Of a DNA stretch of 51,967 nucleotides, positions 27,440-41,424 are shown piece by piece (positions within the stretch are counted from its first letter, which is position 1; each line of letters begins with the position of its first letter). Position numbers and translations under genes: made by a program. The DNA comes from a virus (taxonomy: Duplodnaviria > Caudoviricetes): the IMG/VR virus record IMGVR_UViG_3300044798_000130, positions 1 to 51,967 of that record; one strand, written 5' to 3'. The notes beneath the pieces were generated by a model, which was not told the DNA's origin, did not search any database, and saw nothing but the letters and a program-made list of their open reading frames with translations.

Positions 27440-27613
27440 TCAATCCACCTTCGTCTGCAAATTACAAACATTATACTCATTCAATTGTATCATTCTTGCA
27501 TCTATCGCATCCCGGACCAATGCCGAGAAAACTATTTCAGGATGATTATTCAGAAACTCATCCTGCTCTTTATTGATCCGGGCCGTTCTACTATAAGATT
27601 CGTATTTGCCCAT
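27440..27613 (-). CDS. Small RHH-like regulator (57 aa, not in ORF track)
   Basis: RTARINKEQDEFL....IVFSALVRDAIDA; TATA at 27635..27642 and palindrome TAGTA-N7-TACTA at 27621..27637. Confidence 0.65.
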   Translation of the reverse strand: MGKYESYSRTARINKEQDEFLNNHPEIVFSALVRDAIDARMIQLNEYNVCNLQTKVD

Positions 27614-27816
27614 GCTTAAGTAGTATTCGTATTACTATTTATAGTTATCTATTGCAAAAAATAAAGACACTTTCCAGCACGCATCGACCTCTCAACAATG
27701 CATGCCAGAATAAGATGAGTCGATCCACCGGCATAGCCGCGTTTCCGTCCGCTATGATTCCAGGCTACGTGACTTCGTGTTTGCCACCCGGTCTTTTTTT
27801 CTTGCCTGCCGACTCA

Positions 27817-27941
27817 TGCACCAGGCCGGATTTGCACCGGCGGCTCCCCGCTTGCGATTTATAGAGATTTTTAAGCTCATCCTCGATATCAAGAATGAGA
27901 CCTCGTGCCATGCGGGCCTCTACTGCTGAGATACTTGGTGC
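27817..27941 (-). ncRNA. tRNA-like element with a 60-nt insert replacing the anticodon loop
   Basis: Acceptor GCACCA/TGGTGC-A, D arm TCTC-AGCAGTA-GAGG, stem CCCGC/GCGGG, T arm GCCGG-TGCAAAT-CCGGC. Confidence 0.6.
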
Positions 27942-28034
27942 GCGTGGGGTGATAACGCCAGGCCCTCAGGAAATTCTAAGAGACCTGGCAATGGGCAGAG
28001 ATCCGAGATGAACGGCTCTGGTTTGCCACGCTGC

Positions 28035-28244
28035 CTATTGACTATGATGATACATTGCCCGGCCCAATGGCACATAATCATCCCATTTTCCAGATGGCTT
28101 GATGCCAGTTGATACCCATTCGGTATATTGCTTTATCTGTCCGTCTTGTGTTTTGCAGAAGTTGGTTAGATCCGAATAGCTTCTGCATGCCGCCAATTGC
28201 TTCTCCGAGAAAAAAAAGAAGCCCCATTCATCGTTGTAATTCAT
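28035..28244 (-). CDS. Hypothetical protein
   Basis: GGTGAG RBS; early operon orientation. Confidence 0.5.
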   Translation of the reverse strand: MNYNDEWGFFFFSEKQLAACRSYSDLTNFCKTQDGQIKQYTEWVSTGIKPSGKWDDYVPLGRAMYHHSQ

Positions 28245-28389
28245 TTTTTCTCACCACTATACCAGGCCAATGCTCTTGCCCACGCACACAATTGCACCGA
28301 TTTCTCTGGAAGCAATACCAACGTATCTATCTGATTCAGCATATATATTTGCACTGAATCCAAAGGTGTTCTCAATTCGAGTGACATAA

Positions 28390-28440
28390 AACCGCCTAGA
28401 GGAGTCGAACCCCATCTGCATAGCAGCACCGTGTACGGTT
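28390..28440 (-). ncRNA. Miniature tRNA-like element (T arm plus acceptor-like stem)
   Basis: AACCGT...CTGC-TAT-GCAG-AT-GGGG-TTCGACT-CCTC...GCGGTT. Confidence 0.4.
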
Positions 28441-29125
28441 CCTGTATGGAGGACAGATTTCGTATCTGAGCATATAGGGCTATTGGCCTATAGGACCACT
28501 CTCCCGCGACCAGTTCAGCCTCTTGTCACATTTCGCTATCAGTCTCGCTGCCATGTATCTCTCTTCAGGGCAGTCTAAGCCACCCAGGGATTCGCTAATA
28601 TCCTGGCGATAGGTTAGGATGCGGGTGCGCATATTCATGGCCATTCTGCTTCCTCTCCTTCCCAATCGATCTTATCGTTCGTGTCATCCATGTAATCTTC
28701 CCATTTATTTCCGAATGGGCAAACTTCTGCCTTGCAATCTTCCAATGTCGGTCCCATTATACCGACTGATCTATCTTCAGGAGACCACGAAGATTCTTTG
28801 CATTTTACGCAAAACTTGATTTTGAAAGGTTTATCTACCATGCCTAAATCCCCCATCGCTTGCTAATCTCTGCAATCACTTGCCCGGCCCGATCCGGATC
28901 TGTCTTTTCCAGTTCCAGGTAAAAAGATAAATTGTCCTTAACGTATTGTGGTACTTCCATTTAAATCACCTCTATCTGATATCTAACACCGCTACCTATC
29001 CGGCCCATCGGATCCATCTCCCTCAGCCAATAATCTTGCAGCTCTTCCAGGCCATGAGCATAGTAATCGATGGCCCAGGCATGGCAGCGATGGGTAAAGG
29101 ATACCTGACAATGTAAGATGCCCAT

Positions 29126-39909: not shown

Positions 39910-41424
39910 CTACTCAGGAACCCCATTGTGATAATTGCCTGTTGATATTGTCCCGGTCGCCAAATCGCGTAAACCCACAGTCGTGTTAAACATCCGATTA
40001 TATCGGACTGAATTATTTAATCCGGCTGTTAAATAAATATTCGAGTCGGACGAACTTCTAAAGGTATTAAAATCAATTGCGTTTTCCGAAAACCCCGTTG
40101 GAGTAGTAGCTAACACTAAAATACCAACCTCTCCATTATCAATCATGTTGTGGTTGATATCCCATCGGTTGATCCTTTCATAATCAGTACTACCAACCGA
40201 CTGAAAAAGCATTGCATAATTCGGTGCAGTTGCATTCAGATTGCGAATGTCACAATTGGAAATTCTACCTCCGGTCAATGGCAACCCCTCTCCTCGTACC
40301 CATAACGCGACCCCCATAAATTGTCCTTGAGTCGCTATGTAACTACCAATTATCGACGGAGAATTGCATCCATGTAGCTTAACAGGCAATTCATCATTGT
40401 CGATCATGCACCCAATTATTGTGGGCGTGTCAATATATTGGAGCAAAATGCCATAATAGCATGATATAAAGGTGGAATCTACGATACGTATCCCGTATGC
40501 ATAGACAGATCGATCGGTGCGACCAGTGGCATAGATTCCGTGGTGTAAACTAACAAAATAGTTATTGGCCCACCCACAATTCCCATAATATGAAAACGCA
40601 TTTAACAGCTCGGCGCGAATCCCGACTGCGGTATTTGACGGGTTGTTACGGGCATCGTTCGGCCCCATCAACATATTATGACTTATATCGATACCTTCCA
40701 ATGCACTCAAATGAATGAGTGTGCCGGTACCCGCTTCTGATGTAAGAACGTTATGATCTATCTGCCAGTATAACATGTTTGGTGCGTGCGCCGCCTTGGA
40801 ACTATTTGTCCAGACTTCGACGCCCGTATTGGTGCCCGTCACATTGATACCCATTTCAGTTATATGCCAACGTACGGAAGGAATTTCGGATATGTTGATC
40901 AGTGGATTTACAGAACCCCGAACGCCAGTGGTGGGGCCATTGCCGGCCAGAACAACAGTATGATTTAATTGCAATGACGTAGATATATCAAACATATTAC
41001 ATAATTCTACTTTTCCTCCGAGGTTTAAGGCCGCTTGGATAGCGGTTGAATTACTGGAACTAATCGATAATGGCCAACCGTCTGCCCGCAGTGCCACGGC
41101 TCGTTGCAATCCCAACCAAGGCACCGTGAACAGGAACACTCTGGACGATGTTTGCGGAGCGAGTTGGCCGGATTGAACATATCCACTGTAGGATACGTTT
41201 CCACCCGGTTGCAAAAGTTGCGAATATGTCACCGCGTCCTGCTTCGCCGTGCCATTTACTACGTCATGGATCTGGGTATAAACATGATCGGTCCAATTGT
41301 AAGTAATGTTGATCGGACCGCCTGCAAATTCGGACCAATCGATTTGCGTCGACGCATCCAGTTTTACGGCACCCACGCCGCTTATAAGCAGCGCCAGTGA
41401 TAATAGAATAATAATAAATTTCAT
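39910..41424 (-). CDS. Signal-peptide-bearing parallel beta-helix protein (tailspike/pectin-lyase-like)
   Basis: MKFIIILLSLALLISGVGA; QDAVTYSQL neck; STAIQAALN cap; repeated I..N/GI strands; 12 N-X-S/T sequons. Confidence 0.8.
   Translation of the reverse strand: MKFIIILLSLALLISGVGAVKLDASTQIDWSEFAGGPINITYNWTDHVYTQIHDVVNGTAKQDAVTYSQLLQPGGNVSYSGYVQSGQLAPQTSSRVFLFTVPWLGLQRAVALRADGWPLSISSSNSTAIQAALNLGGKVELCNMFDISTSLQLNHTVVLAGNGPTTGVRGSVNPLINISEIPSVRWHITEMGINVTGTNTGVEVWTNSSKAAHAPNMLYWQIDHNVLTSEAGTGTLIHLSALEGIDISHNMLMGPNDARNNPSNTAVGIRAELLNAFSYYGNCGWANNYFVSLHHGIYATGRTDRSVYAYGIRIVDSTFISCYYGILLQYIDTPTIIGCMIDNDELPVKLHGCNSPSIIGSYIATQGQFMGVALWVRGEGLPLTGGRISNCDIRNLNATAPNYAMLFQSVGSTDYERINRWDINHNMIDNGEVGILVLATTPTGFSENAIDFNTFRSSSDSNIYLTAGLNNSVRYNRMFNTTVGLRDLATGTISTGNYHNGVPE

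What the first reader, a model, noticed from the sequence alone, without database searches (positions are those of the whole stretch)
27655..28031. Tandem structured-RNA locus built around a tRNA-like scaffold with a 60-nt cargo in the anticodon arm
Seen on the minus strand, four folds abut with little or no spacer. (A) 28031-27942: junction closed by GCGTGG/CCACGC with two hairpins. (B) 27941-27817: tRNA-like fold with acceptor, D arm, CCCGC/GCGGG stem and T arm GCCGG-TGCAAAT-CCGGC; its anticodon loop is replaced by 60 nt containing the hairpin CTCATTCTTGA/TCGAGGATGAG. (C) 27817-27715: RNA closed by ATGAGTCG/CGACTCAT, starting at the discriminator base. (D) a long hairpin followed by a T-tract. 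Stem mismatches are mostly G-U on this strand, which supports RNA-level structure. The insert does not form a canonical 37/38 bulge-helix-bulge. Inference: the tRNA mimic could recruit host RNase P and tRNase Z to release the flanking small RNAs, or act as a decoy for tRNA-targeting defence. The insert also begins with ATG and opens a 48-codon frame.
Basis: partly seen in the sequence, partly recalled or inferred. Interest (0 to 1): 0.8.

Follow-up and report, generated by a model that had tools for sequence, protein, structure and literature searches.

The report
Broken-anticodon tRNA mimic in archaeal virus
A gene-free gap in a probable archaeal tailed virus holds a tRNA-shaped element whose anticodon arm is disrupted, set between two conserved hairpins; related viruses have the same layout, so it is a real tRNA-derived element, most likely an RNA-processing signal rather than a working tRNA.

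Summary
The folds are in the sequence, but only some are more than chance. The window is a tailed-virus contig. Its closest named relative is listed with a Methanosarcinales host, and a family member carries a tRNA with a canonical archaeal intron.

The finding fills a 420-nt ORF-free gap between two same-strand gene blocks. Standard detectors call no tRNA here, and the relaxed ARAGORN hit is at noise level.

Four other distinct viral genomes share the locus. All five have:
- hairpin A2;
- a C-rich tail;
- hairpin D with the invariant loop TGAGAGGTC;
- an oligo-T run and a TATA-like box.

Four of the five carry a tRNA-shaped module between A2 and D. Two of these pass Rfam's tRNA threshold, yet all four have an aberrant anticodon region. 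Acceptor and T stems stay paired through many double substitutions.

The 60-nt insert, module C and the 48-codon frame occur only in the window. No bulge-helix-bulge motif would excise the insert.

Best reading: a non-decoding, tRNA-derived element that host RNase P and tRNase Z cut to shape the ends of early transcripts, like the known t-elements. A decoy role and slow decay of a tRNA gene remain open. No expression data were available.

The parts
27957..27989 (-). Hairpin A2 (GCCAGG...CCTGGC base, 13 bp in the window).
   Evidence: Folds in all 5 genomes at 10-13 bp each. The 6-bp base is invariant, and the upper stem differs in sequence but stays paired.
27942..27956 (-). C-rich tail GTTATCACCCC plus ACGC, ending at the 5' end of the tRNA-like acceptor stem
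   Evidence: TATCAC(A)CCC in 4 of 5 genomes and ATAAACCCCC in L047. CCACGC pairs with GCGTGG at 28030-28025 in the full-region fold.
27990..28035 (-).
   Evidence: Fold. A1 (GGCA-C-GCATG...CATGCTGCC) is near-identical in L002, L029 and L047 but diverged here.
27817..27941 (-). tRNA-like module B. Acceptor 27941-27935 / 27824-27818 (6 of 7 paired, A.C at pair 7). D arm 27931-27917. Stem CCCGC 27916-27912 / GCGGG 27851-27847. T arm 27841-27825 (GCCGG TGCAAAT CCGGC). Discriminator A at 27817.
   Evidence: Cloverleaf is the minimum-energy fold of the isolated element. Positional counterparts in L002, L029 and L047, with 47 of 48 acceptor and T cells paired. Descriptor scan. Not called by ARAGORN at defaults or by Rfam.
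27852..27911 (-). 60-nt insert in place of the anticodon loop, with hairpin 27899-27876 (CTCATTCTTGA/TCGAGGATGAG). It begins with ATG, the start of ORF 27911-27765.
   Evidence: Sequence and fold. No bulge-helix-bulge would remove it. No counterpart in relatives, and the ORF is not conserved.
27715..27816 (-). Module C: about 102 nt bounded by the 8-bp inverted repeat ATGAGTCG/CGACTCAT. Window-only insertion of unknown meaning.
   Evidence: Absent in 4 of 4 relatives, where D follows the tRNA-like module within a few bases. No other copy in the window or loci. Its A-run pairs with the terminator U-run in the full-region fold.
27672..27710 (-). Hairpin D, 15 bp, loop TTGAGAGGT holding the invariant TGAGAGGTC (27694-27686)
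   Evidence: A hairpin of 14-21 predicted pairs (a few of them flanking or in-loop) centred on the same 9-mer in all 5 genomes, with unlike arm sequences and 17 G-U among 83 pairs. The 9-mer occurs once per genome in 5 of 5.
27656..27665 (-). T-run TTTATTTTTT, a likely archaeal-type transcription stop
   Evidence: TTATTTTTTG in 4 of 5 genomes and TCTTTTTG in L047. It starts 6 nt after the stem, so the bacterial-type terminator scan finds nothing.
27636..27651 (-). TAGATAACTATAAATA, a promoter-like TATA box. The ATG at 27613 lies 22 nt after it, with no Shine-Dalgarno-like sequence between.
   Evidence: AGATAACTATAAATA is conserved in the window, L002 and L029. L032 and L047 have related TATAAAT boxes. 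The function is inferred.
28388..28442 (-). T0: a second tRNA-like minihelix upstream of ORF 28244-28035. It has an 8-bp closing stem, a 4-bp hairpin and a T-arm-like hairpin GGGG TTCGACT CCTC.
   Evidence: Homologous to L032 847-902. RNAalifold gives 16 pairs: 3 with both sides changed and 2 with one side changed. The window copy alone does not fold better than shuffles (z -0.16).

Best explanation
Element B is a tRNA-derived RNA module that no longer decodes. It keeps the acceptor stem and T arm of a tRNA, but its anticodon loop is replaced by a 60-nt insert.

It sits in the untranslated tail of an early transcription unit of a tailed virus that probably infects a Methanosarcinales-type archaeon. 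Upstream lie a conserved hairpin (A2) and a C-rich tail. Downstream lie a conserved hairpin (D), an oligo-U stop signal and then the promoter of the next unit (RHH-like protein, 222-aa protein, RecT).

Proposed mechanism (inferred, not shown): host RNase P cuts at 27941 and tRNase Z cuts after 27817, as they do at archaeal and plant-mitochondrial t-elements. The upstream mRNA then ends in the A1/A2 hairpins, and the tRNA-like piece and the downstream hairpin RNA are released. A second tRNA-like minihelix (T0, 28442-28388) upstream of ORF 28244-28035 would mark the other side of that unit.

Shown here: the structure, its conservation and its tRNA ancestry. Inferred: transcription, cleavage and any benefit to the virus.
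For: 1. Same place in relatives. 5 distinct genomes share A2, the C-rich tail, D with loop TGAGAGGTC, the T-run and a TATA-like box. 4 of the 5 have a tRNA-shaped module between A2 and D.
2. tRNA ancestry. The modules of L047 and L029 score 48.4 and 39.1 bits on Rfam tRNA, whose cut-off is 29.
3. Non-decoding in all four. The anticodon region is 12 nt in place of the tRNA model's 17 (L047), 21 nt in place of 13 model positions (L029), a long hairpin (L002) or a 60-nt insert (window). None has a bulge-helix-bulge.
4. Helices are kept. 47 of 48 acceptor and T cells pair, and 11 of 12 pairs show two or more pair types. Window versus L002 (RecT 84% identical) has 3 double compensatory changes, 1 one-sided change and 1 mismatch.
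5. Specificity. A strict T-arm-plus-acceptor descriptor hits 2 sites in 104 kb, and one of them is B.
6. Strand. All genes here are on the minus strand. G-U pairs make up 17 of 83 in D and 6 of 58 in A2. The window's minus strand folds at z -2.62 against +0.87 for the plus strand.
7. Archaeal host, hence archaeal tRNA enzymes. The primase is 71% identical over its full length to a virus recorded with a Methanosarcinales host. A family member has a separate tRNA with a canonical 16-nt bulge-helix-bulge intron.
8. Precedent. Passages of PMC4326828 describe t-elements, tRNA-like structures cut by RNase P and tRNase Z, in Haloferax. A listing of PMC1920247 covers plant mitochondria.
9. A second tRNA-like minihelix, T0, is conserved with L032.
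Against: - No expression or RNA-end data exist.
- L032 keeps A2 and D with only 12 nt between them, so the tRNA-like module is not needed for whatever A2 and D do.
- The window copy departs from tRNA rules: G instead of U at position 8, no GG in the D loop, G at T-loop position 2 (the tRNA position-55 equivalent), an A.C pair in the acceptor and 3 nt before the D stem. The elbow that RNase P reads may therefore be weak.
- It falls below every detector threshold.
- In L002 the sense strand does not fold better than the antisense strand (z -1.18 against -2.19). Its isolated module is unremarkable (z -0.76).
- Only 4 sequences carry the module. If they were captured independently from different tRNAs, the 'covariation' is trivial.
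- RNAalifold found no consensus for D on the MAFFT alignment, because the stems sit in different registers.
Confidence: 0.45

Rival explanations
1. It is a decaying tRNA gene. The ancestor carried a working tRNA between A2 and D. The gene is now dying at different rates in different lineages, and the window copy is the most eroded, with no function of its own.
For: Rfam scores grade downwards: L047 48.4 bits, L029 39.1 bits, L002 and the window nothing. L032 has lost the module altogether. The window copy has lost U8, the GG of the D loop and T-loop position 2 (tRNA position 55 equivalent), and has an A.C pair. The same virus family does carry a working-looking tRNA elsewhere.
Against: All four lesions lie in the anticodon region, while acceptor and T stems stay paired in 47 of 48 cells. 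Window versus L002 shows 3 double compensatory changes against 1 mismatch. Neutral decay should break stems rather than repair them. The rest of this gap has diverged beyond blastn recognition between the window and L002.
Confidence: 0.2
2. It is a tRNA decoy or sponge. The anticodon-less mimic binds host factors that recognise the acceptor and T half of tRNAs. These could be defence toxins that cut or modify tRNA 3' ends, or tRNA-modifying or CCA-adding enzymes. Binding would protect host tRNAs or retune translation during infection.
For: The acceptor-T half is selectively retained while decoding is lost in 4 of 4 modules. The module is optional and cargo-like: absent in L032 and variable in its inserts. 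It lies in an early-gene region.
Against: No defence or anti-defence gene is linked to it in the scans made (Pfam and PHROGs). No target is known in Methanosarcinales. The elbow is degraded in the window and L002. Nothing was tested directly.
Confidence: 0.15
3. It is a genuine intron-containing tRNA. The 53-60 nt insert is spliced out to give a working tRNA; ARAGORN suggests Ala, anticodon CGC or GGC.
For: ARAGORN in relaxed mode draws a cloverleaf with a 53-nt intron. Archaeal tRNA genes often carry introns, and a family member has one.
Against: No bulge-helix-bulge flanks the insert, and candidate counts are at shuffle level: 5 against a mean of 7.3. The relaxed mode is noise. Pair 3:70 is A-U, not the G-U that marks alanine tRNAs (recalled rule). 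Relatives have unrelated aberrations at the same arm, including a 5-nt shortening that no splicing could mend.
Confidence: 0.05
4. It acts at the DNA level only. The gap is just a terminator plus promoter or operator region, or a single-strand initiation site. On this reading the tRNA likeness is incidental.
For: D, the T-run and the TATA-like box are the best-conserved parts. The invariant 9-mer could be a protein-binding site. It sits next to genes for small DNA-binding-type proteins.
Against: Two relatives pass the curated tRNA threshold at this exact spot. The abundance of G-U pairs points to RNA. The small DNA-binding proteins differ between genomes (RHH-like versus AbrB-like) while the 9-mer does not change.
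Confidence: 0.1

Closest known systems
t-elements: tRNA-like processing signals of Haloferax volcanii (upstream of 5S rRNA) and of plant mitochondrial mRNAs
   Same: A tRNA-shaped fold embedded in a longer transcript next to other RNAs. It is not a decoder and depends on the acceptor and T half. The setting is archaeal, where RNase P and tRNase Z are known to cut such elements (passages of PMC4326828; one passage of PMC3296008; listing of PMC1920247).
   Different: This one is viral. It carries a 60-nt insert in the anticodon arm and lies between two conserved hairpins ahead of an oligo-U stop. Cleavage was not tested here. The primary papers (Holzle 2008, 2012) could not be read, so their structural definition was not compared.
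Canonical tRNA genes of archaeal tailed viruses, including intron-bearing ones
   Same: Cloverleaf topology, a 7-bp acceptor stem, a 5-bp T stem with a 7-nt loop, a discriminator base, and a location in an intergenic spacer. Relatives pass Rfam RF00005. The HFTV1 viral tRNA with a short intron is described in a passage of bioRxiv 10.64898/2026.09.13.751334.
   Different: There is no 7-nt anticodon loop, no bulge-helix-bulge, no U8 and no GG in the D loop. It is not called by ARAGORN or Rfam in the window.
tRNA-like elements that define the ends of neighbouring RNAs in eukaryotes and their viruses: MALAT1 mascRNA and murid herpesvirus 68 tRNA-miRNA units (recalled, not looked up)
   Same: The working principle: a tRNA mimic recruits RNase P or tRNase Z, so that a flanking structured RNA gains a defined end.
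   Different: Different domain of life and different polymerase. There is no sequence relation, and no evidence here that the flanking hairpins are functional small RNAs.
tmRNA tRNA-like domain and bacterial YrlA tRNA-like module (recalled)
   Same: An acceptor-T half without an anticodon arm.
   Different: ARAGORN's tmRNA mode and Rfam found no tmRNA here. There is no tag frame, no G3:U70 and no Ro or SmpB partner gene in the scans made. In YrlA the acceptor is closed and the ends lie at the anticodon side, which is the opposite topology.

Membership tests
tRNA (Rfam RF00005 / ARAGORN) | Score at or above the curated threshold of a tRNA model | tested here: not met
   Window: no match at gathering score, at E<=10 or at E<=1, and none with ARAGORN at defaults. 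Positional counterparts L047 (48.4 bits) and L029 (39.1 bits) do pass the cut-off of 29.
tRNA (Rfam RF00005 / ARAGORN) | 5-bp anticodon stem closing a 7-nt loop with U33, or an intron removable at a bulge-helix-bulge | tested here: not met
   The stem CCCGC/GCGGG closes 60 nt. No bulge-helix-bulge excises the insert, and candidates are at shuffle level.
tRNA (Rfam RF00005 / ARAGORN) | 7-bp acceptor stem stacked on a 5-bp T stem with a 7-nt T loop (U54, C56, A58, G53-C61) | tested here: met
   6 of 7 acceptor pairs and 5 of 5 T pairs. The loop TGCAAAT has U54, C56 and A58.
tRNA (Rfam RF00005 / ARAGORN) | Conserved tertiary-interaction bases: U8, G18 G19 and U55 (rules recalled) | tested here: not met
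   G at position 8, D loop AGCAGTA without GG, and G at position 55. L029 and L047 do have them.
t-element (tRNA-like processing signal) | tRNA-like fold that is not a decoding tRNA, embedded in a longer transcript beside another RNA | tested here: inconclusive
   Fold and non-decoding state are shown. Co-transcription is inferred only from gene strand, a promoter-like box and a T-run downstream.
t-element (tRNA-like processing signal) | Cleavage by RNase P at the 5' side and tRNase Z at the 3' side | not testable with these tools
   This needs RNA-end mapping or enzyme assays. No RNA run is on hand.
tmRNA | tRNA-like domain plus tag reading frame and pseudoknots, detected by ARAGORN or Rfam | tested here: not met
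   No tmRNA or 14 (the last in -m mode at a lowered threshold).
Bacterial intrinsic terminator (for fold D) | G+C-rich hairpin immediately followed by a U-run | tested here: not met
   The scan found 0 sites. The T-run starts 6 nt after the stem in the window.
Archaeal oligo-T terminator (for the end of the locus) | Run of 5 or more T on the coding strand after the transcribed unit (rule recalled) | tested here: met
   TTTATTTTTT at 27665-27656. T-runs occur at the same place in all 5 genomes. Termination itself was not tested.

The most novel reading that the evidence does not exclude
A clade of archaeal tailed viruses keeps, under selection, a mosaic non-coding locus built from anticodon-less tRNA mimics (B, T0 and further T-arm minihelices in relatives). 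On this reading, host tRNA-processing enzymes cut these mimics to release a set of structured viral small RNAs. The released RNAs would include one that ends in hairpin A2 plus a C-rich tail resembling the 3' tail of 16S rRNA, and the D hairpin with its invariant loop. The mimics themselves would also titrate host factors or defences that bind tRNA ends. That would be a prokaryotic-virus counterpart of the herpesvirus tRNA-linked small-RNA units.
Probability: 0.2. Interest if true: 0.75.

Novelty: new variant of a known kind. Interest (0 to 1): 0.55.

Why it matters
tRNA-like processing signals are known from haloarchaeal rRNA operons, plant mitochondria and mammalian nuclei. None was listed for an archaeal virus in two full-text searches.

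If the element is cut by host RNase P and tRNase Z, it shows how these viruses shape early transcripts in hosts where RNA processing is little studied. The conserved hairpins A2 and D would then become candidate viral small RNAs or protein-binding sites, defined to within a few bases.

If instead it is a decoy, it points to tRNA-directed defences in methanogens.

Either way, the five-genome comparison gives a test set of natural variants: with the module, without it, and with different anticodon-arm lesions.

Tried and rejected
- **Relaxed ARAGORN as evidence.** Rejected. About 1 hit per kb per strand, and 30% of shuffles give a hit.
- **Bulge-helix-bulge intron.** Scanned the window and L002 gaps and the L029 and L047 modules. 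Nothing lies at the insert, and counts are at shuffle level.
- **Module C as a duplicate of fold A.** The local alignment score is reached by 27 of 500 shuffles.
- **The 48-codon frame as a gene.** tblastn against relatives gives one 15-residue match at E 2.1.
- **attP, or a tRNA fragment left by integration.** No integrase in Pfam scans of 20 ORFs or PHROGs scans of 53 ORFs. Both acceptor strands are present.
- **Kissing pair between the A2 loop (CTCCTTTC) and the D loop (GAGAGG).** 6 bp are possible in 4 genomes. The window lacks the A2-loop motif while keeping the D loop, so the pairing is not supported.
- **The A2 loop and AUCACCCC as mimics of the 16S rRNA 3' tail (recalled sequence).** L047 has ATAAACCCCC, so this is left as an idea only.
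- **Consensus fold of D by RNAalifold on MAFFT.** 0 pairs, because the stems are in different registers.
- **Relatives through RecT.** 9 viral and 10 metagenome loci. Only L002 and its identical copy L013 had the gap. L003, L004 and L006 are cut by contig ends, and the rest have other contexts.
- **Pattern scans.** L026, L027, L033, L034, L037 and L039 are chance hits in coding DNA. L048 lacks the locus.
- **GTDB genomes.** No RecT relative. 11 pattern hits, 0 of 11 with the D motif.
- **GenBank phage collection.** No DNA match to the window gap or the L029 gap, and none to the 157-aa neighbour.
- **vir525, the closest named relative.** It has iterons at the corresponding spacer, not this locus.
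- **Sequencing runs.** No RNA holder listed; 2 DNA holders that may be the source.
- **Not attempted.** A covariance model trained without the window, because the MAFFT alignment misplaces the D arm and acceptor pair 7.
Full report
**Setting.** The window is one IMG/VR virus record of 51,967 bases, classed linear and 91% complete. It encodes a large terminase, an SPP1-type portal, a major head protein, a scaffold protein, a tape-measure protein and RecT, so it is a tailed virus.

Its 926-aa primase/helicase-like protein is 71.1% identical over 100% of its length to GenBank record BK063673.1. That record, 'Caudoviricetes sp. vir525', names Methanosarcinales as host. The best RecT match among deposited phages, at 40.6%, is also a Methanosarcinales-assigned virus. 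I did not see the paper that made those host assignments. The only sequencing runs holding the stretch are two peat metagenome DNA runs.

**The observation.** The finding fills a gap without a convincing ORF, 27614-28034. The gap lies between minus-strand ORF 28244-28035 (69 aa) and ORF 27613-27440 (57 aa, RHH-like). Downstream of these come a 222-aa ORF and RecT.

The 401-nt minus strand folds at -141.1 kcal/mol, z -2.62, with 1 of 100 shuffles as good. The plus strand gives z +0.87, with 79 of 100 as good.

Against this, several detectors are silent:
- ARAGORN at defaults finds no tRNA or tmRNA.
- Rfam finds nothing at gathering score, and no tRNA match at E<=10 or E<=1.
- ARAGORN draws the cloverleaf only with introns allowed and the threshold lowered. 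That setting yields 111 hits in the window, and a hit in 30% of 200 shuffles of the region.

The cloverleaf call alone is therefore worth nothing.

**Relatives.** RecT-based scans gave 9 viral and 10 metagenome loci. Only L002, and L013, which is identical over the 901 bases compared, have a comparable gap. L003, L004 and L006 end at contig edges before it. The others have different neighbours.

Between the window and L002 (RecT 84% identical), blastn sees only a few short blocks in the gap. Patterns built from those blocks found L029 and L032, which equals L036. A profile of the 222-aa neighbour found L047. Chance hits (L026, L027, L033, L034, L037, L039) lie in coding DNA.

This makes five distinct genomes: the window, G002 (L002), G001 (L029), G003 (L032) and G005 (L047). 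Gene order downstream is kept in four of the five: a small DNA-binding-type protein, an 'MDIK..RI' protein, RecT, then a homologue of the 312-aa ORF. In L047 the locus instead lies about 2 kb upstream of the 'MDIK..RI' gene, with other ORFs between, and the genes further downstream were not listed. GTDB genomes hold no relative, and deposited phages hold none of the locus.

**Anatomy by comparison.** All five share the following:
- hairpin A2, with the invariant base GCCAGG/CCTGGC and a variable but paired upper stem of 10-13 bp;
- a C-rich tail, TATCAC(A)CCC in four genomes and ATAAACCCCC in L047;
- hairpin D, a fold of 14-21 predicted pairs centred on the invariant TGAGAGGTC;
- a T-run;
- a TATAAAT-type box 22-24 nt before a start codon that has no Shine-Dalgarno-like sequence (22 nt in the window and 24 nt in L002; not measured in the other three).

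TGAGAGGTC occurs exactly once per genome in 5 of 5 genomes, always here. G-U pairs make up 17 of 83 pairs in D and 6 of 58 in A2. They would be A-C mismatches on the other strand, which fits an RNA read from the gene strand.

One result goes against a simple strand argument. The L002 gap folds no better on the sense strand (z -1.18) than on the antisense strand (z -2.19).

RNAalifold found no consensus for D on the MAFFT alignment, because the stems lie in different registers relative to the loop. The support for D is therefore five independent hairpins around one motif, not column-wise covariation.

**The tRNA-like module.** Between A2 and D, four of the five genomes carry a tRNA-shaped module. 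L032 has only 12 nt there.

- L047 493-559 scores 48.4 bits on Rfam tRNA, whose cut-off is 29. It has a canonical acceptor stem, U8, a D arm with GG and a T arm, but 12 nt where the 17-nt anticodon arm should be.
- L029 707-785 scores 39.1 bits, with 21 nt in place of 13. ARAGORN at defaults calls neither L029 nor L002; L047 was not run through ARAGORN.
- L002 2141-2261 has a perfect 7-bp acceptor stem and the T arm GTCAG TTCGACT CTGGC, with long hairpins at the other two arms.
- The window copy has a 60-nt insert.

Across the four, 47 of 48 acceptor and T cells are standard pairs, and 11 of 12 pairs show two or more pair types. The window and L002 differ at 5 of 12 pairs: 3 by double compensatory change, 1 one-sided and 1 mismatch.

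A strict descriptor was also run. It requires a 5-bp T stem with G53-C61, a T loop of the form T.C.A.., and an adjoining 7-nt strand that pairs upstream with at most 1 mismatch. It hits two T-arm sites in both strands of the window. One is B and the other lies inside ORF 39910-41424. Shuffles give a mean of 1.3 combinations. A chance hit landing exactly where relatives have their module is therefore unlikely.

One caveat applies: if the four modules were captured from different tRNAs, the pair variation says only that each is tRNA-shaped.

**Not a spliced tRNA.** A bulge-helix-bulge scan finds nothing that would remove the insert. Counts are at shuffle level: 5 against 7.3 in the window gap and 13 against 8.7 in L002. 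None is found in the L029 and L047 modules.

The same scan finds exactly one motif, at the canonical site, in a separate tRNA of G001 (L049 443-531, 44.3 bits, 16-nt intron). This works as a positive control and supports an archaeal host.

The window copy also lacks U8, the GG of the D loop and U55, and it has an A.C pair in the acceptor stem.

**What is window-only.** Module C (27816-27715) and the 60-nt insert have no counterpart in 4 of 4 relatives and no second copy anywhere. C is not significantly like A (27 of 500 shuffles). The 48-codon frame has no conserved counterpart. I cannot explain C.

**A second element.** Upstream of ORF 28244-28035, the stretch 28442-28388 is homologous to L032 847-902. 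It folds with it into an 8-bp closing stem, a 4-bp hairpin and a T-arm-like hairpin with loop TTCGACT. Of its 16 pairs, 3 have both sides changed and 2 have one side changed. The window copy alone is not better than shuffles (z -0.16).

L047's record has about 660 nt of spacer with further T-arm-like hairpins. tRNA-like pieces are thus a recurrent building block of these spacers.

**Mechanism.** The best-supported reading is a t-element. In Haloferax, tRNA-like structures are cut by RNase P and tRNase Z and define the ends of neighbouring RNAs (passages of PMC4326828; one passage of PMC3296008). Plant mitochondrial mRNAs use them too (search listing of PMC1920247).

Here the cuts would fall at 27941 and after 27817. 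The upstream mRNA would end in the A1/A2 hairpins, and the tRNA-like RNA would be freed. That acceptor-T minihelices are enough for these enzymes is recalled knowledge, not something tested here.

Three rivals remain: slow decay of a former tRNA gene, a decoy for factors that bind tRNA ends, and a purely DNA-level role. L032, which lacks the module yet keeps A2 and D, shows that the module is dispensable for those two hairpins. That fits an accessory element as well as it fits decay.

No expression data were available, so every step after 'it folds and is conserved' is inference.

**Novelty.** In two full-text searches I saw no description of tRNA-like processing elements in archaeal viruses. 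The nearest item was a viral tRNA with a short intron in HFTV1 (a passage of bioRxiv 10.64898/2026.09.13.751334). I rate the element a new variant of a known kind.

Noticed in passing
window 28388-28442 (minus strand): A second tRNA-like minihelix (T0), with T-arm-like hairpin GGGG TTCGACT CCTC, lies between ORF 28665-28480 and ORF 28244-28035. It is homologous to L032 847-902, with 3 double compensatory changes in 16 pairs.
   Followed up: partly
L049 443-531 (G001:C1:54342-54430): A relative carries a separate tRNA (Rfam 44.3 bits) with a canonical bulge-helix-bulge and a 16-nt intron at 37/38. The spliced loop would read TCTGTAA, with C at position 33. This is an archaeal hallmark.
   Followed up: partly
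window 27786-27800 and 27656-27668: The A-run AAGAAAAAAAGAC in module C is complementary to the terminator U-run GTCTTTATTTTTT. The full-region fold pairs them around hairpin D. Its meaning is unknown.
   Followed up: no
L002 2098-2110, L029 668-680, L032 916-928, L047 459-470; window 27946-27953: The A2 loop CACTCCTTTCC (ACTCCTTTC in L047), found in 4 of 5 genomes but not the window, and the tail ATCACCCC resemble the 3' tail of 16S rRNA (recalled sequence). The D loop holds a Shine-Dalgarno-like GAGGT. No test was made beyond noting that L047 and the window break the pattern.
   Followed up: no
L050 1410-2070 (G005): About 660 nt of spacer holds several T-arm-like hairpins: CCGG GTCAAAT CCGG, GCCGG TTCGACT CCGGC (a weak partial match to the 3' end of the tmRNA model, E 0.006-0.047) and GAGG TTCGATG CCCTC. 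These lie ahead of the A2-tRNA-like-D unit.
   Followed up: partly
L023 / L024 (BK063673.1, around the record start): The closest named relative, vir525, has repeated ATACCCGCA / TGCGGGTAT iterons in the spacer downstream of its primase gene. This is a likely replication origin, and the locus studied here is absent.
   Followed up: no
window 28341-28350 (minus strand): AAATATATAT inside the hairpin GATTCAG...CTGAATC, about 100 nt upstream of the ATG of ORF 28244-28035. It may be the promoter of the unit whose tail holds the finding.
   Followed up: no
window 40031-40055 (minus strand): This is the only other hit of the strict T-arm-plus-acceptor descriptor. It lies inside ORF 39910-41424 and is taken as chance.
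   Followed up: no
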